Source: a virus. From it: DNA of 64,000 bases. Where the stretch lies: the IMG/VR virus record IMGVR_UViG_3300020430_000007; one strand, 5' to 3'. Both the position numbers and the translations under genes were made by a program. The notes below the pieces were generated by a model, which had not been told where the DNA came from, made no database searches, and saw only the letters and a list, made by a program, of their open reading frames with translations. Below are positions 18,542 to 59,253 of the stretch, in pieces; position 1 is the stretch's first letter, and every line of letters begins with the position of its first letter.

Positions 18542-19528
18542 ATGAGTAATCCAGTACTTCAGTTTAAGAGGGGTAATCTTGCTAGTCTACCTGGTCTAAG
18601 AGCAGGTGAACCAGGTTTTACAATTGACAAGTACGATTTGTACGTTGGTATTGACTCAACAACAACCAATAACCAATTTATAGGATCCTCTCGATTCTGG
18701 ACAAAAGAAACAACAACCACAGGATCTGGTGTAAATTTAGTTGAAGGAACGAATAACGGTGTACATAAGGTTGTTCTAAAAGCACCCTCTACCATAGGTT
18801 CAGATCAAGAATATACTTTTCCTGCTGCAGCAGTCAATACAGGATACTTAAAGTCTGATGGAAGCGGTAATCTAACATGGGACACAGCTCCTAATGCACC
18901 TGCAGCAGGTGGGTCGGGTGCTGCTGAAGTTAATGTGTCTGGTGTAGGTACAGTAACAAATTTAAAATCAAGTGACATTGTTGTGTCTGCTGGTGCCACT
19001 TTTGCTTCTGCTCAAGTGAGTGATCTTACCTCAGGTAGAGTCGTTCTCGCTGGCACAAACGGTGAGTTAGAAGATAGTGGAAATTTAGCATTTACTGGCA
19101 CACAATTGAATGTAACTGGAAATGCAAACGTTACAAGCGATTTGTCTGTTGGAGGTAATCTAACAATAAGTGGTTCTGTAACACAGATTAACACTGTTAA
19201 CACAACTGTAGAAGATGTTCTGTTAGAATTACAGGTTGTAGATGGTTCTGTTTTAACTGGAGATACTAACAAAGACGTTGGTATTATTATGAATTACTAC
19301 AGTGGTTCTGCCAAAAAAGCTGCTGTATTTTGGGATGACTCTGCAGGTAGAATAGTTCTTGCTGAGGAGGCATCTGAGTCATCAAGTGTATTAACGGTTA
19401 GCACGACTGCATCATTAGAGATTGGTGGTTTGTTTGTAAATGATTGTGCAGGTCAAACACAAGTTATTTCTTGCTCAGGAACCACTCGCTCACTAGAAAA
19501 TATAACCATAGACGGTGGTTCATTCTAG
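18542..19528 (+). CDS. Short tail-fibre-like protein
   Basis: N-terminal LQFKRG...GEPGFT.D fibre anchor, GNLTISGSVTQINT beta repeats, C-terminal IDGGSF; CTAAATA upstream. Confidence 0.75.
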   Translation: MSNPVLQFKRGNLASLPGLRAGEPGFTIDKYDLYVGIDSTTTNNQFIGSSRFWTKETTTTGSGVNLVEGTNNGVHKVVLKAPSTIGSDQEYTFPAAAVNTGYLKSDGSGNLTWDTAPNAPAAGGSGAAEVNVSGVGTVTNLKSSDIVVSAGATFASAQVSDLTSGRVVLAGTNGELEDSGNLAFTGTQLNVTGNANVTSDLSVGGNLTISGSVTQINTVNTTVEDVLLELQVVDGSVLTGDTNKDVGIIMNYYSGSAKKAAVFWDDSAGRIVLAEEASESSSVLTVSTTASLEIGGLFVNDCAGQTQVISCSGTTRSLENITIDGGSF

Positions 19529-19547: not shown

Positions 19548-19730
19548 TTGATTAACATGAATGAAGAAGTGAACGCTGTATTGCAAGTTTATCAAGCAAA
19601 AGTAAATAACTTACTCGCACAAAACATAGCGTTAGAAGCAAAAATTATAACCTTAACAAAAACCATAGAAAGTTTACAGAAGTCATCAGAACAGGATTCT
19701 AATTCAGTTGTGGATGGCGGAGAAGTGTGA
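19548..19730 (+). CDS. Small coiled-coil protein (fibre-associated hypothetical)
   Basis: QNIALEAKI heptads; ends VDGGEV. Confidence 0.6.
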   Translation: MINMNEEVNAVLQVYQAKVNNLLAQNIALEAKIITLTKTIESLQKSSEQDSNSVVDGGEV

Positions 19731-20104
19731 TTGTTTATCTAGCAGGTCCTATAGAATTATGTTCTGAGGATGAAATTCATTTATGGAGAAATTATGTTTC
19801 TGAACATATTCCCTTGAATATAGCAGTATTAGAACCTCGTTATGACTTAAGTTCTGCTGGAGAGATATATCAAGACACAAGAAAAAATGTGCAAGAATGT
19901 GATATGATTTTTGCCTATTTACCAAAAAGTGTAAACGTAAGAAGACCTTCATACGGCACAATATTTGAAATTGCTTATGGTCATGCACTCCATAAGGATA
20001 TTGTTATCGTTTCTGATGATGAGTATGTTCACAATCACCCTATTATGAAGGGAATTGGAATGCATTTTAAATCTTTAGACAATGCAATTAAGTACTTATT
20101 TTAA
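19727..20104 (+). CDS. Nucleoside 2-deoxyribosyltransferase-like / nucleotide N-glycosidase
   Basis: IVYLAGPI N-terminus, CDMIFAYL and SYGTIFEIAYG (catalytic Glu) fit the NDT/RCL/MilB fold. Confidence 0.75.
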   Translation: MIVYLAGPIELCSEDEIHLWRNYVSEHIPLNIAVLEPRYDLSSAGEIYQDTRKNVQECDMIFAYLPKSVNVRRPSYGTIFEIAYGHALHKDIVIVSDDEYVHNHPIMKGIGMHFKSLDNAIKYLF

Positions 20105-20609
20105 TGGTGTTTGGCAAGATAATAACTTTGAGTCTTTACGTTACTCTGGTTACCAACTTGTAGATTACGTTAATTCTCAAAACCCTACCAGTGTTTTAGA
20201 TGTGGGTTGTGGTTACAATAGGTTTAAGGGAAAAATAAAAAATCTTACTGGAATTGATCCATATAACGACGCTGCAGATATAAAAGTAAAAATAGAAAAT
20301 TTTTATCCACTTACCATTCACGATAATTACGATATTGTCTTATGCTTAGGTTCTATAAATTTTGGAGATGAAGAAACAATTGATAATCAATTGTCAATTA
20401 TAAACGAGTTGTTTACAAAAGAGGCAATATTTAGAGTGAATCCTGGCATACCTCATGATTGGACAGATTACGGAGATATAGTTTGGTATAAGTGGACATT
20501 AGATAAAATACACCATGTTGCAATGAAATATAACTATGATATAAAAAAACTTAAATGCGAGTATACTGCAGAGGGTCACAGAAGATTATTTTTTATTTTT
20601 GCTAAATAA
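20082..20609 (+). CDS. Class I SAM-dependent methyltransferase
   Basis: Motif I VLDVGCG, GIDP, YDIVLCLGSINF. Confidence 0.8.
   Translation: MQLSTYFNGVWQDNNFESLRYSGYQLVDYVNSQNPTSVLDVGCGYNRFKGKIKNLTGIDPYNDAADIKVKIENFYPLTIHDNYDIVLCLGSINFGDEETIDNQLSIINELFTKEAIFRVNPGIPHDWTDYGDIVWYKWTLDKIHHVAMKYNYDIKKLKCEYTAEGHRRLFFIFAK
20602..20608 (+). promoter_or_regulatory. Late promoter (CTAAATA) before the ferritin-like gene
   Basis: Motif followed by an AGGA RBS and ATG at 20632. Confidence 0.5.
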
Positions 20610-20631
20610 ACATGTAGATAGGAAAATTAAA

Positions 20632-21306
20632 ATGCTTTCTGGAACAGATTTCGTTAAGAAGATCAAAGAAGGAAACAAGGCACTGTTTGACGCATCTCGC
20701 TCAAACGTCCGTCGTTTTTTCGCTTCCAACCCAAGTGATGAGTATCTAGTCGAGCACTTCCGTGGACGTATGGTCAACGAAGCTCAGAACATGTACGCTA
20801 TCGCTGGTCAGGTTGCCTCCTCTGATCCCTCTACCGACGTAAAAGACTTAGAACTTCTAAGCCGTCAAGCTATGGACGAAGCAAAGCACTTCCGTATGGT
20901 AAAGGAAGTAATCGAGCACATCACTGGTGAAGAACTAGATGTTGCTGCTGCATTTGCTGCTGAAGCAGAGAAACCTCAAGCAAAAGGTGCTGAACTTTTA
21001 GATAAGTACGAAGCATCAGAGGATGAAGCTGCACTTGCTGCATACCAACTGGTAGCAGAAGGAAGAGCAGAAGCAGTATGGAATGAAATGGGAGAATGTG
21101 TAAACGACAAGTTTATATCTTCACGTTACAAGACTATTGCAAAGGATGAAGGATTCCACTCAAACTTAGGTGGACGTGCACTTTCTAGATTAGTAGAGGG
21201 AGATGCGGAAGCACAAACTCGCATTCTAGATATGGTAGAGAAAATGAGAGTAGATCTCCTTGAGATCTCCAACAAGAACACTGCTACTCCTTTAGCCGTG
21301 ATTTAA
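20632..21306 (+). CDS. Ferritin-like diiron-carboxylate protein
   Basis: Ligand pattern E (MVNE) ... DEAKH ... E (VAEG) ... DEGFH in an all-helical sequence; start moved to the ATG after the AGGA RBS. Confidence 0.8.
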   Translation: MLSGTDFVKKIKEGNKALFDASRSNVRRFFASNPSDEYLVEHFRGRMVNEAQNMYAIAGQVASSDPSTDVKDLELLSRQAMDEAKHFRMVKEVIEHITGEELDVAAAFAAEAEKPQAKGAELLDKYEASEDEAALAAYQLVAEGRAEAVWNEMGECVNDKFISSRYKTIAKDEGFHSNLGGRALSRLVEGDAEAQTRILDMVEKMRVDLLEISNKNTATPLAVI

Positions 21307-21910
21307 AAGGTTTACGACCTTTACGAATTTCTTTATCTAACCAGTGCTCCTCGCACGGATAAACATACTTATGATTGGCATCGACAGTTATAAAATTGTC
21401 GATGCCTTCTTTTGTGATTGGAAACTCTAAAATGCGTCCAAGATATTCTAAATATTTTTCTTTGTATAAGAAAAATGCCTCGTGGTCTATGAAGTGAACT
21501 GCTAGATCTTTATAATAGTCAAGTGCAATATCCATAGTCACTTCACCACCCACACGTTTTTGTTGTAGTTCGTTTATATTTCTATCTCTTACTATCACTG
21601 CTATGATTGGCATCACACCAAGTGATATTGCTTTACGAGCAACCTCACATATTTTTGGTGTCTGTCTTACACCGTCATAAAAAAATGGGACAGACACATT
21701 TGCACAAAAATAATCTCCATTTGCAAATGTCCCCTTGTTTATTTTTTCTGGGTGCACCCAGTATTGTGCAAACGGTTCCTCATCACTAGGAACCCAATAC
21801 TTTTCATGCAATTTTTCCCATCCAATAACGTTGGGGTGTGCTGACAATAATCTAGCAAATAAATGATTTCCAGAACCTTGTGGACCTGTAACAATAAGTA
21901 ATTTTTTCAT
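21284..21910 (-). CDS. P-loop sulfotransferase-fold protein (paralogue 2)
   Basis: LLIVTGPQGSGNHLFARLLSAHPNV resembles the 5'-PSB loop of sulfotransferases; IAVIVRD resembles the 3'-PB motif. Confidence 0.65.
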   Translation of the reverse strand: MKKLLIVTGPQGSGNHLFARLLSAHPNVIGWEKLHEKYWVPSDEEPFAQYWVHPEKINKGTFANGDYFCANVSVPFFYDGVRQTPKICEVARKAISLGVMPIIAVIVRDRNINELQQKRVGGEVTMDIALDYYKDLAVHFIDHEAFFLYKEKYLEYLGRILEFPITKEGIDNFITVDANHKYVYPCEEHWLDKEIRKGRKPFKSRLKE

Positions 21911-21927: not shown

Positions 21928-22716
21928 TTAACAACAATCACATTCATTAAGTTTTTTTCCTGTTATTATTTCGTGTCTAAAATTTCTTTTATCATTTTTG
22001 TCTGCCCAATCACCCCATGCATCTGTTCCCTCCTCATCATAAGAATGATCTCTTTCTTTTGGTATTTGTTTTTCTGATATATTAGGATTCCATGGTGATG
22101 ATATGCCAGTTTTATTACAATCATCTAAGGGACTGTCTTTGATGTATGAGACATACTTTGCGTTTGAGTCAAGTTCCAATATATCATTTATTCTGTTATC
22201 ATACCATGCTATAGGAATTCCTAAATTTAATGATTTTAGATATTCTTGTTTATAAAGATATAACAATTCATAACTCAAAAAAATTGGTTTTTCAAATTGA
22301 TGCAATTGATCTAGAAAATGTCTGGTTGTTGATTCTTCTCTTATCCTTTTTTGTTGATTTTCCAGTATGTTTTGATCCCTACCTATGACTAAGATCTTGG
22401 TTTTTATTCCCAAGTCCTGAGCATTTGTGCAAAACTGCACCACGTTTGGACACCATTTCGTCCCTTTACTTTCTATGCCAAGTGGGATACTAATAGATGT
22501 AAAGTAATATTGACTTTGCGACCAGTCAAATTTATGCAACGTGGATGGATCCCTCCAATATGCTGCAAAGGGTTCTGAAAAACGGTGAGCTTCCCAATAA
22601 TTATCAAGAAGACTCTTCCAACCAAAAACGTCATCGTGTAATGAGAATATTTTAGACCAGAGGTGGTTGCCCGAACCTTGCGGTCCCGTTAACACAGCGA
22701 GAGTTTTGTTCATCAT
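21928..22716 (-). CDS. P-loop sulfotransferase-fold protein (paralogue 1)
   Basis: LAVLTGPQGSGNHLWSKIFSLH, ILVIGRD, FLSYELL; clear paralogue of 21284..21910. Confidence 0.65.
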   Translation of the reverse strand: MMNKTLAVLTGPQGSGNHLWSKIFSLHDDVFGWKSLLDNYWEAHRFSEPFAAYWRDPSTLHKFDWSQSQYYFTSISIPLGIESKGTKWCPNVVQFCTNAQDLGIKTKILVIGRDQNILENQQKRIREESTTRHFLDQLHQFEKPIFLSYELLYLYKQEYLKSLNLGIPIAWYDNRINDILELDSNAKYVSYIKDSPLDDCNKTGISSPWNPNISEKQIPKERDHSYDEEGTDAWGDWADKNDKRNFRHEIITGKKLNECDCC

Positions 22717-22736: not shown

Positions 22737-22745
22737 ATTATAACA
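22737..22745 (-). promoter_or_regulatory. Extended -10 promoter (TGtTATAAT) for the minus-strand gene pair
   Basis: Reverse complement of attataaca, followed by an AAGGTG RBS and ATG; back-to-back with a + strand late motif ATAAATA at 22745-22751. Confidence 0.55.
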
Positions 22746-22790
22746 TAAATATCTTGGACTGTAGATACAGTTTGTTTAGGTACATACCAT

Positions 22791-25546: not shown

Positions 25547-26401
25547 ATGGCACAACCAAACACTAGACAAGGACTCATAGAATACGGTAAGAGGCAACTA
25601 GGTGCTCCCGTGTTGGAGATAAATGTTGCTGATGAGCAATATGATGATCTAATAGATGATGCTATTCAGATGTTTCACAACCGTCACATGGATGGTGTGG
25701 AAAAAATGTATTTGAAACATAAAATAACGGAAAATTTTACTAACACAGTGCAAGCAAGTGGGACTGATGGTGCAGCATCATCCTTAGGAATAACAACCAC
25801 AACTGCTAGTGCGACAATTACTGGTATAGGTGCTACCACATTTTCTTTTGAAGAGACTCAAAACTTTATCCAAATTCCAGACGCTGTTATTGGTGTTGAG
25901 AAAGTATGGAAGGTAGATAGTCGTGCAATAGCATCTAACATGTTCAATATAACTTATCAATTATTTTTGAATGAAATATATTATTTTAGTTCAATGGAAT
26001 TGTTGAGTTACACACAAACAAAAAGATATCTAGAAGATATTGATTTTATATTACATCCTGACAAACAAATAAGATTTAACAGAAGACAAAATAGATTGTA
26101 TATTGATAGTGATTATTCTAGTATGAAAGAAGATGATTATTTAATAATTGAATGTTACAGAACACTTGATCCTAATGAGTATACCAAGGTTTATAATGAC
26201 CCATTCTTAAAAAGGTACTTTACTGCTTTGCTCAAAAGGCAGTGGGGTATGAACTTGATTAAATATCAGGGTGTAAAATTGCCTGGCGGTGTTGAACTCA
26301 ATGGTAGGCAAATTTATGACGATGGTGTAGCAGAGATTACATCACTTGAAGAAAAAATGAGTTCTACTTACGAACTACCAGTAATGGACATGATAGGGTA
26401 A
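25547..26401 (+). CDS. gp13: Neck protein gp13
   Basis: RQLGAPVLEINV, KRQWGMNLIKY.GVKLPGGVELNG. Confidence 0.95.
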   Translation: MAQPNTRQGLIEYGKRQLGAPVLEINVADEQYDDLIDDAIQMFHNRHMDGVEKMYLKHKITENFTNTVQASGTDGAASSLGITTTTASATITGIGATTFSFEETQNFIQIPDAVIGVEKVWKVDSRAIASNMFNITYQLFLNEIYYFSSMELLSYTQTKRYLEDIDFILHPDKQIRFNRRQNRLYIDSDYSSMKEDDYLIIECYRTLDPNEYTKVYNDPFLKRYFTALLKRQWGMNLIKYQGVKLPGGVELNGRQIYDDGVAEITSLEEKMSSTYELPVMDMIG

Positions 26402-33293: not shown

Positions 33294-35474
33294 ATGGCAC
33301 TTCGATTAGCATCTCCAGGTATTTCAGTAAGAGAGGTTGACCTTACTAGGGGTGGCGTAGATTTTACACTCAACGTTGTTGGTGGTATTGCTGCTCCTTT
33401 CCGTAAAGGACCTGTCAATGAAATAACTAGAATCAACAATGAAAAAGAATTAGTTGACACATTTGGTGAACCAGGTGTGGGTACAACTGATTTCCACTAC
33501 GAGTGTTGGTATGGGGCAGCAAACTTCTTATCATATGGTGGTAAGTTGGATGTTGTACGTGTTGGTGGTGGAGACTTAAACACAGCAAACGCTGCATCAG
33601 GTCAAGCATCTTTAGGAAATCTTCGAGTAGATGGATACGAAGATTATATCAATAATCAAGCAGATGATACCACTTGGTATTTTTCCGCAAAAAATCCTGG
33701 TGCATGGGCAGAAAATATTAAGGTTGCAGTCATAGACAATGCTGCAGATCAAGTATTTACTGGCGTTACCACCACAAACATATTTGTAGGATATGGTGTT
33801 ACACAATCTCTCACTGGTGTAACAGTGGGTGTTGGTACTACTGCTGCTGCAAGTGGTATGTTGAAGGGTATTATTTCAAAAATTGGAAGTGGTACAATAG
33901 ATGTTCGAGTGGTAAGTAAAGTAGTTGATGGTGTAGAAACACTAGTAAACTATCAAGAGGGTTCTCAACTTGAGTTCAAAACAGGAACAGGTAATCTGGT
34001 TGGTATCAACTCTTCAAGCACTGCTAACATAAACAGTAGGTTTACACCTGCCTCTGGCACCATAAGTGATTGGTATACAGCACAGAATATTATGACGAGT
34101 GTGGCAGATGGTGGATCTGACATTGTGACTATCCCTTGGAAGTCAGTGCTCAATAAACCAAAAACAAACGACTATGTTACAAAGAGAGATGGAGCAAATG
34201 ATGCTCTTCACGTTGTAGTCATAGATGCAGGTGGTGGTGTTACTGGTGATGTGGGATCAGTTCTTGAAAAATTCCCCAACCTTTCTAAAGGAAAAGATAC
34301 CACACAATCTGGTGGTAGATCAATTTACTATAAAGATTTTCTAGCAGATAACTCCGAATTCATTTTTGCTGGTGTATCACCCGTAAATGGAACAGATACT
34401 CATCATGGCACAGAACCATTAGCATCTGGATTCAGTAGTGGATTTGTTCCTGTGACTGACAATGCTGGAGCGTGGGGTCAAAACGTAAAGAATATTAAAT
34501 TTGCTTCTTTAGGAAATGTAGGATATCCTCTTGTAGGTGGTAAAGATTACACAGGTGTAGGATTGTTTGATGCACCTTTAGGTGACATACTATCAGGATA
34601 TGATAAATTTGCTGACCCCGTAGATAGTGACATTAGATTCTTATTACAAGGATCTGCTCATAAAACAAAAGAAGAGGAACAAGCAAAAGCAAATAAAATG
34701 ATCCAGATTGCCGAGGGCAGAAAGGATACGGTTGCTGTTATATCACCTAATAGAACTGCAACAGTAAATGTAGCAAGTGCTACAGATCAATTAGATAATG
34801 TTTTATCATTCTTCTCACCAATAACCTCATCATCTTATGTTGTGTTTGATTCAAGTTATCAATACGTTTATGATAGGTTCAATAAAAAGTTTGTTTATAT
34901 ACCTTCATCTAGTGATATTGCTGGATTGATGGTAAGAACAGATAGAGATTCTTTCCCATGGTTCTCACCTGCTGGTACAGCAAGAGGTGGTTTGAACTTC
35001 CCCGTGAAACTTGCGTTCAATCCTGGTCAAGACGCTAGAGATAGACTCTATGCAAATAGAATCAACCCTATCATATCACAACCTGGTTCTGGTATAATTC
35101 TTTTTGGAGATAAAACAGGATTAGCATTTGAAAGTGCATTCGATAGAATCAACGTAAGAAGACTCTTTATCACTGTAGAGAAAGCGATTGAAAACGCTGC
35201 TAAATCAGCACTCTTTGAACTCAATGATGCTGGCACGAGATCTAATTTCGTCAACGTTGTTGAACCATTCCTAAGGGATGTTCAAGCAAAGAGAGGAATT
35301 CAAGATTTTCTTCTTATATGTGATGAATCAAATAACACTGCTGATGTTATTGACCGTAATGAGTTTATTGCGGATATATTCATCAAACCAGCACGTTCGA
35401 TTAACTTTATCGGACTAACATTCGTAGCTACACGCACTGGAGTATCCTTCAGTGAAGTTGTAGGAACTGTGTAA
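33294..35474 (+). CDS. gp18: Tail sheath protein gp18
   Basis: SPGISVREVDLT, PWFSPAG..RG, FDRINVRRLF, IKPARSINFI. Confidence 0.97.
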   Translation: MALRLASPGISVREVDLTRGGVDFTLNVVGGIAAPFRKGPVNEITRINNEKELVDTFGEPGVGTTDFHYECWYGAANFLSYGGKLDVVRVGGGDLNTANAASGQASLGNLRVDGYEDYINNQADDTTWYFSAKNPGAWAENIKVAVIDNAADQVFTGVTTTNIFVGYGVTQSLTGVTVGVGTTAAASGMLKGIISKIGSGTIDVRVVSKVVDGVETLVNYQEGSQLEFKTGTGNLVGINSSSTANINSRFTPASGTISDWYTAQNIMTSVADGGSDIVTIPWKSVLNKPKTNDYVTKRDGANDALHVVVIDAGGGVTGDVGSVLEKFPNLSKGKDTTQSGGRSIYYKDFLADNSEFIFAGVSPVNGTDTHHGTEPLASGFSSGFVPVTDNAGAWGQNVKNIKFASLGNVGYPLVGGKDYTGVGLFDAPLGDILSGYDKFADPVDSDIRFLLQGSAHKTKEEEQAKANKMIQIAEGRKDTVAVISPNRTATVNVASATDQLDNVLSFFSPITSSSYVVFDSSYQYVYDRFNKKFVYIPSSSDIAGLMVRTDRDSFPWFSPAGTARGGLNFPVKLAFNPGQDARDRLYANRINPIISQPGSGIILFGDKTGLAFESAFDRINVRRLFITVEKAIENAAKSALFELNDAGTRSNFVNVVEPFLRDVQAKRGIQDFLLICDESNNTADVIDRNEFIADIFIKPARSINFIGLTFVATRTGVSFSEVVGTV

Positions 35475-40520: not shown

Positions 40521-41930
40521 ATGTTTAACTCTGGACAACTCCAGAAGAAGTGGCAACCCCTCCTAGAGGCAGAAGGACTTGACAATATCAAGGACAACCA
40601 TAGGAAAGCGGTTACCGCACAACTTCTAGAAAACCAAGAAAGATTTTTAAGAGAGGAGAGAGCATTCTTATCAGAAGCACCTCCTACAGTAAACACAGAC
40701 CCATCAGGCACAGGTAATCCAGGTTTCTCTGGTTCTGCTGCAGTTGGTGGTCCTGTTGCTGGTTTCGACCCAGTTCTAATCTCATTGATTAGAAGAGCAA
40801 TGCCTAACTTGGTGGCATACGATCTTGCAGGTGTTCAACCAATGAACGGACCTACAGGATTGATCTTCGCAATGAGATCACGCTTCGACAATCAGAACGG
40901 AACAGAAGCATTATTCAACGAACCAAATTCAGCGTTCTCTGCTCAGAACTCTGCTGCATCACTTGATCAGGGTGATTACACAGGAGCTACTGACGGTGGC
41001 ACAGACGTTGGTTTTGGTACAACTGCTCAGAGTGGTACTAACCCATCAATCTTGAACGGTGGTTCTGACAACGCATTCTCACTAGGACAAGGTTTCAAGA
41101 CACAAGATCTTGAAAAGTTAGGAGATAATACTACTACTAACGACTTCCGTGAGATGGCATTCAGTATCGAGAAGGTCTCGGTTACTGCCAAATCTCGTGC
41201 GTTGAAAGCAGAGTACTCACTAGAACTTGCTCAAGACTTGAAAGCAATTCATGGTCTAGACGCAGAAGCTGAGTTAGCAAACATTCTTTCTACTGAAATC
41301 CTTGCTGAGATCAATAGAGAAATTGTTAGAACAATCTACAAAGTTGCTGAACCAGGTGCTCAAACAAACACTGCTACAACAGGTGCGTTTGACTTAGACA
41401 CTGACAGTAATGGTCGTTGGATGGTTGAGAAGTTCAAAGGTATGATCTTCCAGCTAGAGAGAGATGCTAACGCTATCGCACAAAGAACTCGTCGAGGAAA
41501 GGGCAACATTATCCTTTGCTCTGCTGACGTTGCTTCCGCACTTACTGCTGCTGGACAACTAGACTACACACCTGCACTCAACAGCAACTTGAATGTTGAT
41601 GACACAGGTAATACATTCGCTGGTACACTCAACGGACGTTACAAGGTATACATCGATCCATTCGCTGCTAACCTAGACGCTAACCAGTACTACGTTATGG
41701 GTTATAAGGGTTCATCTCCTTATGACGCAGGTATCTTCTACTGCCCATATGTACCACTACAGATGGTAAGAGCAGTGGGACAAGACACCTTCCAGCCAAA
41801 AATTGGATTCAAGACCAGATATGGTATGGTTTCCAACCCATTTGCTGAGGGTACAACACAAGGTCTTGGTAGAATTACTGCTAACAGTAACAGATACTAC
41901 AGAAGAGTTAAGGTTCAAAACCTAATGTAA
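40521..41930 (+). CDS. gp23: Major capsid protein gp23
   Basis: GVQPMNGPTGLIFAMR, KSRALKAEYSLELAQDLKAIHG, FQPKIGFKTRYG. Confidence 0.99.
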   Translation: MFNSGQLQKKWQPLLEAEGLDNIKDNHRKAVTAQLLENQERFLREERAFLSEAPPTVNTDPSGTGNPGFSGSAAVGGPVAGFDPVLISLIRRAMPNLVAYDLAGVQPMNGPTGLIFAMRSRFDNQNGTEALFNEPNSAFSAQNSAASLDQGDYTGATDGGTDVGFGTTAQSGTNPSILNGGSDNAFSLGQGFKTQDLEKLGDNTTTNDFREMAFSIEKVSVTAKSRALKAEYSLELAQDLKAIHGLDAEAELANILSTEILAEINREIVRTIYKVAEPGAQTNTATTGAFDLDTDSNGRWMVEKFKGMIFQLERDANAIAQRTRRGKGNIILCSADVASALTAAGQLDYTPALNSNLNVDDTGNTFAGTLNGRYKVYIDPFAANLDANQYYVMGYKGSSPYDAGIFYCPYVPLQMVRAVGQDTFQPKIGFKTRYGMVSNPFAEGTTQGLGRITANSNRYYRRVKVQNLM

Positions 41931-52931: not shown

Positions 52932-53865
52932 TTTTATATGGGTTGAAAAATATAGACCCAAAATTATTGACGATTGTATTCTTCCTGATCGTATCAAAAA
53001 TACGTTTAAAAATTTTCTAAATACTGGCGAGATTCCTAATCTTTTATTGTCAGGTCCACCTGGCATTGGTAAGACTACAGTTGCAAAGGCACTGTGCACA
53101 CAATTAAAAACTGATTTTTATGTTATCAATGGTTCTGATGAGGGTAGGTTCTTGGATACGGTTCGTAACCAAGCAAAAAACTTCGCATCAACAGTCTCTC
53201 TCACGAGCGAATCAAAACATAAAGTCATCATTATTGACGAAGCGGACAACACAACCTCTGACGTACAGCTCCTTCTTAGAGCAAACATTGAAGCGTTCTA
53301 TAAAAACTGTAGATTTATCTTCACCTGCAACTATAAGAACAAAATCATCGAACCTCTCCATAGCAGGTGTTCTGTTATTGACTTTAGTATTGGTAGACAT
53401 GATAAACCATCAATCGCAGCACAATTTTTTAAAAGAATAAATGATATCCTTTTAGCAGAGAATGTAAAAGGTGATAAAAAGGTTATAGCAGAACTTATAA
53501 GTAAATATTTTCCTGATTGGAGAAGAGTTTTGAATGAGTGTCAAAGATATTCTGTGGGAGGAGAAATAGATGTTGGTATACTTGCTAATTTAGACAATGT
53601 AAATATAAAAGAACTTACAGATTATCTAAAAGCAAAAGAGTTTCCAAATGTCAGGAAATGGATAGTTCAAAACCTAGATAACGATACTAATGTTATACTA
53701 AGAAAGATTTACGATTCAGTATATGAATACATGAAACCTAAATCTATACCAGAGGCAGTATTGATTATTGCAAAATATCAATATCAATCTGCTTTTGCTG
53801 CTGATCAAGAAATAAATTTATTGGCAGCTCTTACAGAAATTATGTGCAATTGCGAATTCAAATGA
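52924..53865 (+). CDS. gp44: Clamp loader large subunit gp44
   Basis: WVEKYRP, GPPGIGKTT, IIDEAD, LHSRC. Confidence 0.96.
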   Translation: MSDFIWVEKYRPKIIDDCILPDRIKNTFKNFLNTGEIPNLLLSGPPGIGKTTVAKALCTQLKTDFYVINGSDEGRFLDTVRNQAKNFASTVSLTSESKHKVIIIDEADNTTSDVQLLLRANIEAFYKNCRFIFTCNYKNKIIEPLHSRCSVIDFSIGRHDKPSIAAQFFKRINDILLAENVKGDKKVIAELISKYFPDWRRVLNECQRYSVGGEIDVGILANLDNVNIKELTDYLKAKEFPNVRKWIVQNLDNDTNVILRKIYDSVYEYMKPKSIPEAVLIIAKYQYQSAFAADQEINLLAALTEIMCNCEFK

Positions 53866-54758
53866 AATGTTTAGTAACAGGTGGAGCAGGATTTATTGGT
53901 TCCCACATAGTAGGCAAATTATTACAGAACAACCATGAGGTTGTTGTTATAGATAATGAGTCTGCTGAATCAAACGATTCTTTTAATTGGTACGATGATC
54001 ACGCTCAAAATCATATTGTCGATATACGAGACTTCGATTCTTGCCGTCCTTTGTTTGACGGTGTTGAGTATGTTTTTCACTTAGCAGCACATAGTAGAAT
54101 ACAAGTTGCTATGGAGAATCCTAGGGAATGTTTGGAAACAAACTACCTAGGCACATACAACATGTTAGAATGTGCAAGGCAAGTAGGTGCTCGTAGATTT
54201 ATAAATTCTTCCACATCATCTTCTTATGGTTTGACAAACAAACCACCCTTACAAGAAGATATGGCACCTGATTGCCTAAACCCTTACTCCGCAAGTAAAG
54301 TAGGAGCTGAATCTTTATGTCAGATGTATTTCAAATTGCATGGACTGAGAACTATAACACTGAGATACTTCAATGTTTACGGTCCTCGTCAACCACTAAA
54401 AGGACAGTATGCACCAGTAATAGGACTGTTCGAGGAGCAAGCAAAACGTGGAGAACCATTGACCATAGTTGGTGATGGTGAACAGCGTAGAGATTTTACA
54501 CACGTAAATGATGTGGTAGAAGCAAACATAAATGCTATGATGACAAACTATTCTGGAATAGTTGTAAATATTGGCACTGGTGTAAATTATTCTGTCAATG
54601 AAGTTGCGTCGTTTATATCTAACAATACTGTAAACATTCCTGAACGATTAGGTGAAGCAAGAGAAACTCTTGCTAATATAGACAGAGCAAATACTTTGTT
54701 ATCATGGCAACCTCAAATTACATTGGAGGATTATTTTGATACCAATACCCTTATTTGA
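53862..54758 (+). CDS. NAD-dependent nucleotide-sugar epimerase/dehydratase
   Basis: VTGGAGFIG, YSASK (YxxxK), RYFNVYGP, RDFTHV. Confidence 0.93.
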   Translation: MKCLVTGGAGFIGSHIVGKLLQNNHEVVVIDNESAESNDSFNWYDDHAQNHIVDIRDFDSCRPLFDGVEYVFHLAAHSRIQVAMENPRECLETNYLGTYNMLECARQVGARRFINSSTSSSYGLTNKPPLQEDMAPDCLNPYSASKVGAESLCQMYFKLHGLRTITLRYFNVYGPRQPLKGQYAPVIGLFEEQAKRGEPLTIVGDGEQRRDFTHVNDVVEANINAMMTNYSGIVVNIGTGVNYSVNEVASFISNNTVNIPERLGEARETLANIDRANTLLSWQPQITLEDYFDTNTLI

Positions 54759-54820
54759 ATCACTTGTATTGATTATTGCGATAGTGTGGTTAAACCTTTT
54801 ATTATCACAACTTGGTTATT

Positions 54821-55657
54821 ATGATTTCTCAGAAAATTCTAAAAACTCCACTAAGATATCCAGGCGGAAAAAGCAGGGCAATCACAAAGATTAGTCAATT
54901 CTTTCCCGATTTGACTAATTTTGAAGATTATAGAGAACCATTTCTAGGAGGTGGTTCTGTTGCATTGTGGGTAACTAAACAATTTCCTCATTTAAATATT
55001 TGGGTCAATGATTTATACGAACCATTGTATAATTTTTGGTCAATGTTGCAGACAAATAGTGATGAAATGACCGATAGTCTGAAAAATTATAAAACTACAC
55101 ATCCAAATCCAGACACAGCAAAAGAATTATTTGAAGAGTGTAAGTTTAAAGTTGCAGATAAGAACACAGATAACTTGAATAGAGCAATTGCTTTCTATAT
55201 TATCAATAAATGTAGTTTTTCTGGTCTATCAGAGGCATCATCCTTCTCAAAACAGGCAAGTGACTCTAATTTTTCGATGAGAGGTATCGAAAGATTGCCA
55301 GAATACTCAGAAATTATAAGAAATTGGAGAATAACTAACGTATCATATGAGTTTTTGTTAGGTGGTCAAGACACATTCATCTATCTTGACCCTCCATATG
55401 AGATAGGATCAAATTTATATGGTAAGAAGGGAGGTATGCATAAGTATTTTCACCATACAAACTTCTCAAGAACATGTTGTGAAGCAAAACATCACATGTG
55501 TGTCAGTTATAATTCTTCAAACCTAAACAAACTTAGATTTCATGATTGGAAGGCAGTAGAATATAATCATACATATACCATGAGATCTACTGCCACATAT
55601 ACTAAGGCACAAAAAAACAGAAAAGAATTGGTTTTATTGAATTATACAATTGAATAA
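54821..55657 (+). CDS. dam: DNA adenine methyltransferase (Dam/D12 class)
   Basis: TPLRYPGGKS, EPFLGGGSV, YLDPPY. Confidence 0.9.
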   Translation: MISQKILKTPLRYPGGKSRAITKISQFFPDLTNFEDYREPFLGGGSVALWVTKQFPHLNIWVNDLYEPLYNFWSMLQTNSDEMTDSLKNYKTTHPNPDTAKELFEECKFKVADKNTDNLNRAIAFYIINKCSFSGLSEASSFSKQASDSNFSMRGIERLPEYSEIIRNWRITNVSYEFLLGGQDTFIYLDPPYEIGSNLYGKKGGMHKYFHHTNFSRTCCEAKHHMCVSYNSSNLNKLRFHDWKAVEYNHTYTMRSTATYTKAQKNRKELVLLNYTIE

Positions 55658-58053: not shown

Positions 58054-58494
58054 ATGTTTAACGATGCAAACGCTATTACTTTGACTGTGCCTGATACTCA
58101 GGATTATTTGTCAAAGATAAGAAGAAATATGATCGGGTTTGATGATTGGTTCACAACCTTTGATCAGCATTTTGCAAGCACAAATAACTACCCACCCTAT
58201 AATACAATAAAGGTTTCTAATCATGAGTACAGGGTTGAGGTTGCACTTGCAGGATTTAAGAAAGAAGATTTAAAAGTATACACTCAAGAGGGAAGACTTG
58301 TTATTGAAGGCAAGAAAGGTAATGGTGTAGAAAAAGATTACGTTCATAAGGGACTGGCACAACGTGCATTCACACGTCAGTGGTCATTACCAGATGAACT
58401 TGAAGTAAAGAATGTAAAATTTGAAGATGGACTCTTATTGATTGATATTGAAAAAATTATTCCTGATGCACAACAACGAAAAGATTGGATCTAA
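58054..58494 (+). CDS. hsp20: Small heat-shock protein Hsp20
   Basis: NYPPYN, EVALAGF, HKGLAQRAFTR, FEDGLLLI; strong AAGGAGG RBS. Confidence 0.95.
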   Translation: MFNDANAITLTVPDTQDYLSKIRRNMIGFDDWFTTFDQHFASTNNYPPYNTIKVSNHEYRVEVALAGFKKEDLKVYTQEGRLVIEGKKGNGVEKDYVHKGLAQRAFTRQWSLPDELEVKNVKFEDGLLLIDIEKIIPDAQQRKDWI

Positions 58495-58521
58495 ATATAA
58501 TGTAGACTTGGTGATAGTTCG

Positions 58522-59253
58522 TTGTATTCAAGAGTTCTTAGACACATAAAACCTAAAGATCTAAGAGAGAGTATTACTCTTAGATTTACTGAAATCCTCA
58601 ATCCAGTCTTCTGGATTGGGGATTCTCTCAAGCCTGAGGTTAGACAGGCATTGATGAATTTTGCAAGAGCATTTGCTGCTTATGTTGATTTAGATGAAAA
58701 AGCAATAACAGATATATTGTTATTGGGTGGTAATGCGGGGTATAATTATACGTCATACTCAGATTTGGATGTGCATTTGGTGGTCAATCCAAAATATATT
58801 CCAGATTGCAATCCTGATTTGCTTGACCAATTTTTCATGGACAAAAAAACATTATGGGAATTAACACATAATGTTACAATTTATGGTGTAAAAGCAGAAC
58901 CATACATTGAAAAACCAGGCATCACAAGAAAGAAAAGTCAAGGTGTATACAGTATTATGAAAGGGTCATGGGTTCAAGAACCTGAGATGGTAGATGGAGA
59001 TGTGGACGAAAAAGAGATAGAAAAAAAAGTAAATGCTTTTAAGAATCAAATAGATAATCTCATCAAAAATGAAGATGCCAATGGTCTCAAGGAACTCATA
59101 AAAAAATTGAGGAGTTCTAGAGGAACATCATTACAGAAGTATGGAGAGTATGGATTTGAAAATATGGTATTCAAAGAATTGAGAAATCAAGGTTATATTG
59201 ACAAAGTACGGACAGTTGTGGTAAACTTAAAATCAAGAAGTCTTTCCTTATGA
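58522..59253 (+). CDS. Nucleotidyltransferase-fold protein
   Basis: LLGGNAGYNYTSYSDLDVHL (G-x-...-DxD) and GEYGFENMVFKELRNQG; CTAAATA upstream. Confidence 0.7.
   Translation: MYSRVLRHIKPKDLRESITLRFTEILNPVFWIGDSLKPEVRQALMNFARAFAAYVDLDEKAITDILLLGGNAGYNYTSYSDLDVHLVVNPKYIPDCNPDLLDQFFMDKKTLWELTHNVTIYGVKAEPYIEKPGITRKKSQGVYSIMKGSWVQEPEMVDGDVDEKEIEKKVNAFKNQIDNLIKNEDANGLKELIKKLRSSRGTSLQKYGEYGFENMVFKELRNQGYIDKVRTVVVNLKSRSLSL

What the first reader, a model, noticed from the sequence alone, without database searches (positions are those of the whole stretch)
20602..21306. Ferritin-like protein with capsid-gene-like codon bias and its own late promoter
Seen: a complete E / DExxH / E / DExxH ligand set. 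Codons are visibly shifted to CGT, TTC, AAC, TAC and ATC (e.g. aac gtc cgt cgt...cac ttc cgt gga cgt), like gp23 and unlike its AGA/TTT/AAT-rich neighbours. It is preceded by CTAAATA and an RBS. Inference: an abundant late protein, possibly virion-associated or an iron sink / oxidative-stress enzyme, which matters for iron-limited picocyanobacteria. It does not look like classical ferritin, Dps, NrdB or aldehyde-deformylating oxygenase at sequence level.
Basis: partly seen in the sequence, partly recalled or inferred. Interest (0 to 1): 0.7.

Follow-up and report, generated by a model that had tools for sequence, protein, structure and literature searches.

The report
Phage di-iron enzyme, late, codon-optimised
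An uncultured marine T4-like phage carries a 224-residue iron-binding (ferritin-fold) protein of an unnamed family, with its own late promoter and terminator and capsid-like codon choice; it is most likely the oxidising enzyme of a widespread gene cassette whose product is unknown, not an iron store.

Summary
Window 20632-21306 (+) encodes a 224-aa protein whose E50 / D82-E83-H86 / E143 / D172-E173-H176 set is invariant or over 90% conserved in 26 relatives and lies on four long helices (AF2 pLDDT 93). No Pfam, NCBIfam, PHROG or PADLOC model reaches threshold. Sub-threshold hits all fall in the ferritin-like clan.

C-ending two-fold codons are 63%, against 26% in the rest of the window and 72% in gp23. 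Arg CGT is not gp23-like, and CAI against gp23 is only rank 4 of 51. The bias is family-wide (top of its locus in 67 of 89 loci) although synonymous sites are saturated, so it reflects selection, not recent transfer.

An NTAAATA box sits about 24 nt upstream in 62 of 69 distinct upstream sequences. A conserved hairpin terminator follows the gene.

The gene is almost always linked to sulfotransferase-fold paralogues (88 of 91 loci) and a small methyltransferase (73). In relatives it is also linked to a C26 amidotransferase (sometimes fused), a cupin and solute-binding proteins.

The best reading is a highly expressed late oxidase or oxygenase of an undescribed tailoring cassette. Iron-sink and virion roles are unsupported. 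Earlier agents of this scan found the same cassette on other DNA. No isolate phage carries it.

The parts
20602..20608 (+). T4-late-type promoter box CTAAATA, ending 23 nt before the ATG; overlaps the stop codon (20607-20609) of the upstream methyltransferase gene
   Evidence: An NTAAATA box ends 10-40 nt (mode 23-27) upstream of the homologous ATG in 62 of 69 unique upstream sequences.
20613..20623 (+). TGTAGATA motif followed by AGGA Shine-Dalgarno (20620-20623, 8-nt spacer)
   Evidence: TAAATA-N(2-14)-GTAGA occurs 5 times against 1.15 expected, also before the fibre gene at 22791 and the gene at 58522. GTAGATAGG is conserved in cyanophage-group upstream regions.
20632..21306 (+). Coding sequence of the 224-aa ferritin-like di-iron-carboxylate protein (FER, P0001)
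21377..21416 (+). 13-bp hairpin plus T-rich tail, 70 nt after the FER stop and inside the convergent PL-A coding sequence: probable intrinsic terminator of the FER transcript
   Evidence: scan; dG -21.3 kcal/mol, z -6.2, 0 of 200 shuffles as stable. Conserved at the same offset in the cyanophage group. 4 of 10 pairs show double changes that keep pairing.
20082..20609 (+). 175-aa SAM-methyltransferase-like gene (VLDVGCG motif), cassette partner immediately upstream
   Evidence: Family present in 73 of 91 loci, usually directly upstream of FER. No Pfam hit.
21284..21910 (-). PL-A: sulfotransferase-fold protein with the invariant TGPQGSGNH loop; convergent with FER and overlapping it by 23 nt
   Evidence: AF2 pLDDT 90. 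VIA top hits are sulfotransferases: 4gox Z 10.8, TPST1/2 Z 10.2-10.5. Foldseek. Atlas places it near Sulfotransfer_3 clusters. 59% identical to the Janthinobacterium copy.
21928..22713 (-). PL-B: second sulfotransferase-fold paralogue, with a C-terminal Cys-rich tail ending CDCC
   Evidence: The PL family is present in 88 of 91 loci, 164 copies.
19727..20104 (+). Nucleoside 2-deoxyribosyltransferase-like gene (PF05014, 35.9 bits); variable upstream member of the cassette
   Evidence: Present in only a subset of loci.

Best explanation
FER is a soluble four-helix-bundle di-metal (most likely di-iron) carboxylate protein. It founds an unnamed family of the ferritin-like superfamily.

It is transcribed late as its own short unit, consisting of an NTAAATA box, an SD, the ORF and a hairpin terminator. 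It is under selection for efficient translation, which implies a high protein level.

It most likely works as an O2-activating oxidase or oxygenase, the oxidative step of a conserved and mobile cassette. The other constant members are two sulfotransferase-fold paralogues and a small SAM methyltransferase. In relatives the cassette also has a C26 glutamine amidotransferase/gamma-glutamyl hydrolase, a cupin, APS kinase and TctC/DctP solute-binding proteins.

The inferred sequence of events is as follows. FER, reduced by a host electron donor such as ferredoxin, hydroxylates or otherwise oxidises a small molecule or glycan. The sulfotransferase-fold proteins then transfer a sulfuryl-type group. 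The methyltransferase caps the product.

Shown here: the fold class, ligand conservation, gene linkage, promoter and terminator conservation, and the selected codon bias. Inferred: metal identity, catalysis, order of steps, substrate, and the actual expression level.
For: Ligands are conserved on four helices.

All sub-threshold Pfam hits of 26 members fall in the ferritin-like clan: PaaA_PaaC 13, DUF455 8, R2 6, Rubrerythrin 5, AurF 5, MiaE 2. None falls in a haem-oxygenase-like family.

Structural neighbours are enzymes: ADO-activity proteins 8fhc Z 16.5, 5ux2 14.9 and 6d9f 14.3 (22% id), PaaC 14.5, R2lox 13.8, CADD 16.7, UndA 15.6. The Asp preceding each ExxH (DExxH twice) is the pattern I know from PaaA and multicomponent mono-oxygenases (own knowledge).

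Linkage: FER is in 89 loci, PL in 88 and the methyltransferase in 73 of 91 loci. The same FER + PL-A pair, with a methyltransferase-like and/or a cupin gene, occurs in Massilia, Janthinobacterium and a Nitrosopumilaceae MAG at 56-63% identity. FER-GATase fusions exist. Adjacency to GATase or TctC is seen in divergent members at 35-40% identity. APS kinase lies in the cassette in L001/L002.

Expression signals: the late box is conserved and so is the terminator. The NNC fraction is top of the locus in 67 of 89 loci, mean 0.56 against 0.30. Third positions are statistically independent between homologues of 86% identity or less. Partner genes are not biased: 0.23-0.32.
Against: No family model reaches threshold, so the superfamily assignment rests on motifs, a predicted structure and sub-threshold hits.

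Fold search cannot separate ferritin-like from haem-oxygenase-like helical bundles (Z 13.5-17 for both).

There is no reductase gene and no recognisable substrate-defining gene in this window. An enzyme would not obviously need far stronger codon optimisation than its partner enzymes. CAI against gp23 is only modestly raised.

The PL proteins lack the Lys/Arg of the usual PAPS-binding loop, so 'sulfation' itself is uncertain. There are no expression, metal or activity data, and no cultured phage carries the gene.
Confidence: 0.5

Rival explanations
1. Iron-handling or peroxide-detoxifying protein (ferritin, bacterioferritin, Dps or rubrerythrin-like). It would be made in bulk late in infection to sequester iron or remove H2O2 in the illuminated host.
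For: The best sequence-level PDB hits are symerythrin (E 0.006), with bacterioferritin and rubrerythrin weaker. Rubrerythrin and Ferritin_2 give sub-threshold hits in 5 and 4 of 26 members. The E/ExxH/E/ExxH site is also a ferroxidase-centre pattern. Strong codon optimisation fits a stoichiometric protein. AhpC/AhpF lie about 2 kb away in Massilia.
Against: The protein has 224 aa and three extra helices beyond the four-helix core. It has no rubredoxin domain. No hit to PF00210 Ferritin appears among the 25 families that one search lists, out of 37 matched. The near-obligate linkage to sulfotransferase-fold and methyltransferase genes across phages, bacteria and an archaeon has no rationale for an iron store. 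Fusion to a glutamine amidotransferase also has none. Cage-forming ferritins and Dps rank below enzyme folds (Z 11.4-12.8, covering only the core).
Confidence: 0.12
2. Single-turnover or very slow 'reagent' protein. The di-metal site would oxidise one of the protein's own residues, or a tightly bound precursor, to release a metabolite, as CADD does for p-aminobenzoate. An amidotransferase would supply nitrogen in some relatives. High expression would then be needed because each molecule works once or rarely.
For: FER alone in the cassette is codon-optimised. CADD is among the top structural matches (8va9 Z 16.7, 200 residues). Y166 is nearly invariant and lies two helical turns before ligand E173. 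GATase fusion and adjacency are observed.
Against: The ligand set has 2 His and 4 carboxylates on four helices. It is not the 3-His/3-carboxylate set of haem-oxygenase-like di-iron enzymes, since only H86 and H176 are conserved. Sequence affinities are all ferritin-like. This window has no amidotransferase. No direct test was possible.
Confidence: 0.1
3. Virion-associated or capsid-packaged protein. This would be a structural or injected component encoded among the tail-fibre genes.
For: The gene lies between fibre-like genes and gp13. It has a late box and strong codon bias. An I-K-E tripeptide at residues 11-13 resembles a T4 prohead-protease site (own knowledge of T4).
Against: The IKE tripeptide is not conserved in relatives. 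The N-terminal helix 4-31 is an integral, confidently modelled part of the fold (pLDDT 95-98). The same protein, with the same partner, occurs in non-viral contexts in bacteria and an archaeon. There is no similarity to any PHROG or BFVD structural protein.
Confidence: 0.05
4. The codon and GC shift is a relic of recent horizontal transfer from a GC-richer genome and says nothing about expression.
For: The gene's GC is 0.443 against 0.355 for the window. The family is mobile between phages and cells.
Against: There is no near-identical cellular copy. A scan of 185,579 species representatives gave only three relatives, at 56-59% identity. The excess is seen in 67 of 89 loci, across phages with locus GC of 0.30-0.49. 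Synonymous sites are saturated between homologues. Phage copies form one clade, with cellular copies outside it. In the GC-rich bacteria the gene is GC-poorer than its neighbours (0.54-0.57 against 0.62).
Confidence: 0.04

Closest known systems
PaaA/PaaC and bacterial multicomponent mono-oxygenase hydroxylases (ferritin-like di-iron oxygenases with paired DExRH motifs)
   Same: Two E...DExxH motifs on a four-helix core. PaaA_PaaC is the most frequent sub-threshold Pfam hit (13 of 26 members, best E 2.8e-4). PaaC 3pvr_B gives Z 14.5, and ToMO and MMO subunits Z 12.5-13.4.
   Different: No score reaches the curated cut-off (16.6 against 28.5 bits). The protein is much smaller than hydroxylase alpha subunits. 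The locus has no PaaB/C/D/E-type partners or reductase. The gene context is entirely different.
Cyanobacterial aldehyde-deformylating oxygenase and 'ADO-activity' structural-genomics proteins (8fhc, 5ux2, 5uwz, 6d9f)
   Same: Similar size (about 215-230 aa), a single-domain ferritin-like fold and the same ligand pattern. Z is 13.7-16.5 over 169-194 residues, with up to 22% identity to 6d9f. ADO is known to depend on ferredoxin and to be slow (own knowledge), which would fit high expression.
   Different: There is no significant sequence match (5uwz E 0.1; Foldseek TM 0.40-0.47 with rmsd 9-12 A to ADO entries). No acyl-ACP reductase partner is present. Linkage is to sulfotransferase-fold genes instead.
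MiaE / DUF455 / AurF-type small ferritin-like oxygenases
   Same: Sub-threshold Pfam hits: MiaE best E 2.4e-5 (2 members), DUF455 9.4e-5 (8 members), AurF 5.4e-3 (5 members). The Atlas lists neighbour clusters in which 10% of members carry AurF and 14% carry DUF455.
   Different: None reaches a gathering score. AurF has an extra His ligand (own knowledge). No tRNA-modification or arylamine context is present.
Haem-oxygenase-like di-iron oxidases and TenA (CADD, UndA, BesC, HrmI, FlcD)
   Same: Highest full-length structural scores: TenA 2rd3 Z 17.1, CADD 16.7, HrmI 16.3, UndA 15.6. These are also the Foldseek top hits.
   Different: The ligand arrangement is E/ExxH/E/ExxH on four helices, with only two conserved His. 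There is no sequence-level hit to any HO-like family. Helical bundles give high Z easily, as the tool's own note says.
Symerythrin / rubrerythrin / bacterioferritin
   Same: Best PDB sequence hits. The second DExxH aligns with symerythrin's metal-binding ExxH (E 0.006).
   Different: The hits are weak and local. There is no rubredoxin domain, the protein is longer, and the gene context is enzymatic.
Campylobacter jejuni O-methyl-phosphoramidate pathway (Cj1415-Cj1422). This is a lead taken from earlier finding e1-5706934, for the cassette and not for FER itself.
   Same: The enzyme types combine in the wider cassette: a C26 gamma-glutamyl hydrolase, an APS-kinase-like kinase, a group transferase using a PAPS-like donor, and SAM methyltransferases (plus own knowledge of the pathway).
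   Different: No glutamine kinase or cytidylyltransferase was seen. That pathway has no di-iron protein. The window's cassette lacks the amidotransferase and the kinase. The analogy was not tested here.

Membership tests
Ferritin-like superfamily, di-iron-carboxylate proteins | Two E...ExxH ligand motifs, about 30 residues apart within each pair, on four different helices | tested here: met
   E50, E83/H86, E143 and E173/H176. Spacings are 33 and 30 residues. The helices are 36-62, 70-98, 132-156 and 160-188.
Ferritin-like superfamily, di-iron-carboxylate proteins | Significant profile match to a member family | tested here: inconclusive
   No Pfam or NCBIfam score is above the cut-off. The sub-threshold hits of 26 members fall consistently in this clan. 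PDB profile hits have E of 0.006 or worse.
Ferritin-like superfamily, di-iron-carboxylate proteins | Binds two Fe (or Mn/Fe) ions | not testable with these tools
   Needs metal analysis of purified protein.
Classical ferritin / bacterioferritin / Dps (iron-storage cages) | Match to PF00210; about 150-180 aa four-helix subunit that forms a 12- or 24-mer cage | tested here: not met
   PF00210 is not among the 25 families listed (37 matched in all). The protein is 224 aa with extra helices 4-31, 104-125 and 192-216. The oligomeric state itself is not testable here.
Rubrerythrin | Rubrerythrin di-iron domain plus a rubredoxin-type Cys4 domain | tested here: not met
   PF02915 is sub-threshold only, in 5 of 26 members. 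There is no CxxC pair and no extra domain in the 224 residues.
Ribonucleotide reductase R2 (NrdB) | PF00268 match, and a radical Tyr four residues after the first His ligand | tested here: not met
   14.6 bits against a 33.6 cut-off. H86 is followed by F-R-M-V, with no Tyr. The position of the radical Tyr is from own knowledge of E. coli R2.
Cyanobacterial aldehyde-deformylating oxygenase | Sequence-family membership and pairing with acyl-ACP reductase | tested here: not met
   There is no significant sequence hit. No reductase gene was found in 91 loci. The similarity is at fold level only.
Haem-oxygenase-like di-iron oxidases (CADD, UndA, SznF type) | 3-His/3-carboxylate site supplied by three core helices | tested here: not met
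   Only H86 and H176 are conserved His. The ligands lie on four helices. The fold similarity is high but not discriminating. The definition is from own knowledge.
T4-type late transcription unit | TATAAATA-like -10 box shortly upstream, no -35 element, conserved position | tested here: met
   CTAAATA ends 23 nt before the ATG. NTAAATA is found in 62 of 69 distinct homologous upstream regions, with a mode of 23-27 nt. This includes 14 instances of exact TATAAATA among all the box octamers counted. Actual late transcription is untested.
PAPS-dependent sulfotransferases (for partners PL-A and PL-B) | Sulfotransferase fold with a 5'-phosphosulfate-binding loop that carries Lys/Arg | tested here: inconclusive
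   Sulfotransferases give the best fold matches (Z 8.9-10.8, against 8.9 or less for kinases). The invariant loop is GPQGSGNH, without Lys or Arg. There is no Pfam hit.

The most novel reading that the evidence does not exclude
FER is the abundant, slow or single-turnover oxidant of an undescribed viral pathway found across oceans and lakes. That pathway would import a small acid (via TctC/DctP receptors in relatives) and convert it, through oxidation, sulfuryl- or phosphoramidate-type group transfer and methylation, into a compound not yet known from phage infection. In this reading FER is a new functional class of ferritin-like enzyme whose expression rivals that of structural proteins.
Probability: 0.3. 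Interest if true: 0.8.

Novelty: new variant of a known kind. Interest (0 to 1): 0.55.

Why it matters
The family is abundant: 2190 proteins at E <= 0.001 in public metagenomes and 350 IMG/VR contigs. Yet it has no family model, no name, no solved relative and no member in 50,697 deposited phage genomes.

It carries the strongest translational-selection signature in its neighbourhood, comparable with the major capsid protein at two-fold codons. So the phage apparently invests heavily in it late in infection.

If it is the oxidase of a sulfation/methylation cassette, it marks a widespread and unstudied piece of virus-driven chemistry in marine and freshwater plankton. That chemistry may touch sulfur or iron budgets of infected picocyanobacteria.

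It is also a clean experimental target. It is a small soluble protein with clear ligand mutants, and the cassette has only four genes.

Tried and rejected
Searches that gave nothing:
- PHROGs, NCBIfam and PADLOC gave no usable hit.
- tblastn of FER, of a 64%-identical relative (P0121) and of PL-A against INPHARED phages found no match. The methyltransferase gave one weak hit.
- Megablast of 18-24 kb of the window found nothing.
- The BFVD fold search had no hit at E <= 0.001.
- Foldseek against the PDB had no hit at E <= 0.001.
- The nearest held virus record (G001) is a 22-kb fragment without the gene.
- The first genome contigs attempt with the wide alignment failed for lack of a conserved stretch.

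Tests that weakened a claim:
- CTAAATA is not enriched window-wide. Only its position and strand are informative.

Ideas dropped:
- A capsid-targeting/prohead-protease idea (IKE at residues 11-13) was dropped because the tripeptide is not conserved.
- NrdB-like radical-subunit idea: there is no Tyr at the R2 position.

Other dead ends:
- Literature searches (cyanophage with ferritin-like, rubrerythrin, sulfotransferase or CTAAATA; diiron with sulfotransferase) found no description of this family.
- Contexts of the most distant relatives (P0189, P0190, P0127) were on contigs too short to help.
Full report
**What is there.** The window is the structural and replication region of a T4-like myovirus. 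The major head protein is at 40521-41930, the tail sheath at 33294-35474, a gp13-like adaptor at 25547-26401, and the clamp and clamp loader at about 52-54 kb. Its gp23 is 74% identical to the closest cultured phages (Synechococcus phages Sf-CH5 and S-T4). It is 88% identical to an uncultured 'Marine virus AG-345-D19'. So it belongs to an uncultured cyanomyovirus-like lineage, and the host is not shown. The finding's ORF runs from ATG 20632 to the stop at 21306 and gives 224 aa, P0001. The TTG at 20599 is not the start, for two reasons. Hundreds of relatives begin at the same ML(S/T)G and are 221-224 aa long. The putative promoter box also lies inside the TTG extension.

**Ligands and fold.** I aligned 26 relatives, down to 22% identity. 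E50, Q79, D82, E83, H86, D131 and E143 are invariant. D172, E173, H176, R46 and Y166 are at least 90% conserved. AlphaFold2 on this alignment gives pLDDT 93.2 and pTM 0.88. The model has eight helices, and the four ligand positions sit on the long helices 36-62, 70-98, 132-156 and 160-188. The spacings of 33 and 30 residues match the classical E/ExxH/E/ExxH arrangement of ferritin-like di-iron proteins.

No Pfam, NCBIfam or PHROG model reaches threshold. The best is PaaA_PaaC at 16.6 bits against a cut-off of 28.5. When all 26 members are scanned, the recurrent sub-threshold hits are PaaA_PaaC (13), DUF455 (8), RNR small chain (6), Rubrerythrin (5), AurF (5), Ferritin_2 (4), acyl-ACP desaturase (3) and MiaE (2, best E 2.4e-5). 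All are ferritin-like families and none is haem-oxygenase-like. A profile search of PDB sequences gives only weak hits, with symerythrin at E 0.006 and its second ExxH aligned to the family's DExxH.

Fold searches give a tie. TenA, CADD, HrmI and UndA (haem-oxygenase-like) score Z 15.6-17.1 over the full length. ADO-activity proteins, PaaC, R2lox and RNR R2 (ferritin-like) score Z 13.5-16.5 over residues about 31-220. The ligand pattern and the sequence affinities therefore decide for ferritin-like, not the Z-scores. The protein is not a member of classical ferritin/Dps, rubrerythrin, NrdB or ADO (see the membership table).

**Codon bias.** At the six two-fold or ATY families (F, N, Y, I, H, D) the gene uses C in 32 of 51 cases (0.63). 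gp23 has 0.72, and every other ORF of at least 100 aa in the window lies between 0.08 and 0.43. The immediate neighbours are at 0.20-0.32. The difference from the pooled window is significant (odds ratio 4.7, p = 6e-8), and the difference from gp23 is not (p = 0.28). GC is 0.443, against 0.442 for gp23 and 0.355 for the window.

The resemblance to gp23 is not general. FER uses CGT/CGC for 10 of 13 Arg, whereas gp23 uses AGA for 16 of 24 (p = 0.005). Gly, Val and Asp choices also differ. That is rank 4 of 51 and z = 2.1, and only about one SD above the 0.584 +/- 0.028 expected from the amino-acid sequence with average window codon usage. So the accurate statement is a strong and unusual preference for C-ending and CGY codons, shared with gp23 only for the NNC part.

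**Is the bias a transfer relic?** No. In 89 homologous loci (IMG/VR, ENA and three cellular genomes) the FER gene has the highest NNC fraction of its locus in 67. The mean is 0.56, against a mean of 0.30 for the locus medians. GC is 0.45 against 0.37, across phage loci whose own GC ranges from 0.30 to 0.49. Between the window's gene and homologues of 86% amino-acid identity or less, the third positions of conserved two-fold codons agree no more often than expected for independent draws (for example 0.54 against 0.50, and 0.41 against 0.44). Synonymous sites are therefore saturated, and the bias must be maintained by selection against AT mutation pressure.

A pattern scan of 185,579 species-representative genomes found only three cellular relatives, at 56-59% identity: Massilia atriviolacea, Janthinobacterium sp. 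and a Nitrosopumilaceae MAG. Profile searches found the gene in 1 of 201 genomes of the Massilia family and 2 of 201 Nitrososphaeria. In a FastTree phylogeny the phage copies form one clade (support 100). The window is nested in a cyanophage-type subclade (support 99), and the cellular copies branch outside (midpoint root, quick method). In the GC-rich bacteria the gene is GC-poorer than its neighbours.

**Promoter and terminator.** CTAAATA at 20602-20608 ends 23 nt before the ATG and overlaps the stop codon of the upstream gene. AGGA lies 8 nt before the ATG. Window-wide the heptamer is not enriched (12 found, 17 expected). However, 11 of 12 copies are on the coding strand, and five end 15-37 nt before start codons. 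These include the sheath gene (33294) and the fibre-like gene at 18542.

The stronger evidence is comparative. In 62 of 69 distinct upstream sequences of FER homologues a TAAATA hexamer ends 10-40 nt before the ATG, with a sharp mode at 23-27 nt. It occurs as ACTAAATA, TATAAATA (the T4 consensus, 14 times), GCTAAATA or CATAAATA. This holds whichever gene lies upstream. By composition a hexamer would be expected in about 3% of such intervals (my estimate).

Seventy nucleotides after the stop, inside the convergent PL-A coding sequence, a 13-bp hairpin with a T-rich tail is predicted at 21377-21416. Its dG is -21.3 kcal/mol, z = -6.2, and 0 of 200 shuffles fold as well. It is conserved at the same offset throughout the cyanophage group, with some compensatory pair changes. 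Together these define a monocistronic late unit. Other genes with a proximal box are not codon-biased (0.23-0.36), so the bias is specific to FER. The two PL genes on the other strand have no late box. A sigma-70-like site (10 of 12 matches) lies upstream of PL-B (this is a consensus match only).

**The cassette.** I clustered all ORFs of 91 loci. FER is present in 89. A family with the invariant N-terminal loop TGPQGSGNH (PL) is present in 88, with 164 copies, usually as two paralogues A and B. A 175-aa protein with a VLDVGCG SAM-binding motif is present in 73, usually directly upstream of FER.

In the window these are the methyltransferase-like gene at 20082-20609, PL-A at 21284-21910 (-) and PL-B at 21928-22713 (-). 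In the cyanophage group the block sits at a fixed place between fibre-like genes and gp13. PL has no Pfam or PDB sequence hit. Its model (pLDDT 90) matches sulfotransferases best. The olefin-synthase ST domain 4gox gives Z 10.8, TPST1/2 give 10.2-10.5, and NDST and Stf9 about 9. P-loop kinases score 8.9 or less over fewer residues. The protein-language-model atlas places it next to Sulfotransfer_3 clusters. The usual Lys/Arg of the PAPS loop is missing, so the donor is uncertain.

The FER + PL-A pair is also adjacent in the three cellular genomes, at 59-63% identity for PL-A. There it occurs with a cupin in Janthinobacterium and the archaeon (no cupin ORF was called in Massilia), and in the two bacteria also with a methyltransferase-like gene.

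More distant FER members (35-40% identity) lie next to a C26-type class-I glutamine amidotransferase (L096, L097, L098, L102, and L090). Two metagenomic clusters are FER-amidotransferase fusions of 416-419 aa. TctC, TctA or DctP solute-binding and transport genes, APS kinase, a carbamoyltransferase, SPASM radical-SAM genes and further sulfotransferase-like families occur in variants. None of FER and PL-A has a match in 50,697 deposited phage genomes, and the methyltransferase-like gene has only one weak partial match there. In three loci a ferredoxin-dependent bilin reductase gene, typical of cyanophages, is inserted between PL-A and PL-B. This supports a cyanobacterial host for that group.

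**Interpretation.** The linkage is tight and cross-domain, the structural neighbours are enzymes, and the paired DExxH motif and amidotransferase fusions are present. This makes an oxidase or oxygenase role in a multi-step tailoring pathway the best-supported reading. A plausible order is oxidation by FER, then group transfer by the sulfotransferase-fold proteins, then methylation. This order, the substrate and the electron donor (host ferredoxin) are inferences.

Why FER alone is codon-optimised is unexplained. A slow enzyme (as ADO is known to be), a single-turnover protein (CADD-like logic) or a stoichiometric role are all possible. The iron-sink or peroxidase reading rests on weak local hits to erythrins and on abundance, and it does not explain the linkage. 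The virion reading has no support.

Earlier follow-up agents of this scan reached the same cassette-level conclusion on other genomes. One offered the C. jejuni O-methyl-phosphoramidate pathway as an analogy, which I did not test.

**Verdict.** This is a real and well-defined gene of an undescribed ferritin-like family. Function remains unproven. Interest is moderate to high as an experimentally tractable and very widespread viral unknown.

Noticed in passing
window 21377-21416 (+), inside PL-A CDS 21284-21910 (-): A strong conserved hairpin (13 bp, dG -21.3) is encoded within the coding sequence of the convergent sulfotransferase-fold gene, over the peptide G-I-D-N-F-I-T-V-D-A. It looks like a terminator for the FER transcript superimposed on a protein-coding region. 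Variants such as L004 change both arms and the encoded residues together.
   Followed up: partly
window 20603-20618, 22746-22765, 58492-58506 (+): The late-type TAAATA box is followed within 2-14 nt by GTAGA(TA). This occurs 5 times against 1.15 expected, three of them just upstream of genes (FER, the 915-aa fibre gene, and the gene at 58522). TGTAGATA alone occurs 11 times against 3.8 expected. It may be a conserved initiation or leader element.
   Followed up: partly
window 21928-22713 (-), C-terminus: PL-B carries a long, poorly conserved C-terminal extension that ends in a Cys cluster (…ECDCC). Relatives end in KKCC or CHC. PL-A has no such tail. Metal binding or lipidation is conceivable.
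   Followed up: no
window 22737-22765 (-): A sigma-70-like promoter match (TCTACA-17-TATAAT with TG, 10 of 12) lies upstream of PL-B, in the 65-nt divergent spacer shared with the fibre gene. The fibre gene has a CATAAATA box at 22743-22750. This hints that the PL genes and FER are transcribed at different times.
   Followed up: no
P0326, P0327; L090:1484-2729; L096, L097, L098, L102: FER relatives are fused to, or directly followed by, a C26 class-I glutamine amidotransferase/gamma-glutamyl hydrolase. TctC-type solute-binding genes flank others.
   Followed up: partly
L035:9288-9914 (-), also L034 and L061: A ferredoxin-dependent bilin reductase gene (PF05996, E 7e-26) is inserted between PL-A and PL-B in some cyanophage-group loci.
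   Followed up: no
L057:5510-8066 and similar loci L058-L085: In a second, AT-richer phage group the cassette is extended by tandem genes with an N-terminal SPASM domain followed by a radical-SAM domain. It also gains DUF2061 and several further sulfotransferase-like families (motifs GVPGSRWS and GTGWSGTS).
   Followed up: partly
window 19727-20104 (+): A nucleoside 2-deoxyribosyltransferase-like gene (PF05014) overlaps the start of the methyltransferase-like gene by 23 nt. It is present in only some cassette-bearing loci.
   Followed up: no
window 53844-54758 and 54812-55657 (+): An NAD-dependent sugar epimerase/dehydratase (GDP-mannose-4,6-dehydratase-like) and a Dam-type N6-adenine methyltransferase sit directly after the clamp-loader gene.
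   Followed up: no
L001 (ENA contig of 471,898 bp): A 62-64% identical FER lies on a 472-kb contig next to TctA, two signal-peptide proteins, APS kinase, a carbamoyltransferase and methyltransferases. I did not determine whether this is a jumbo phage or a cell.
   Followed up: no
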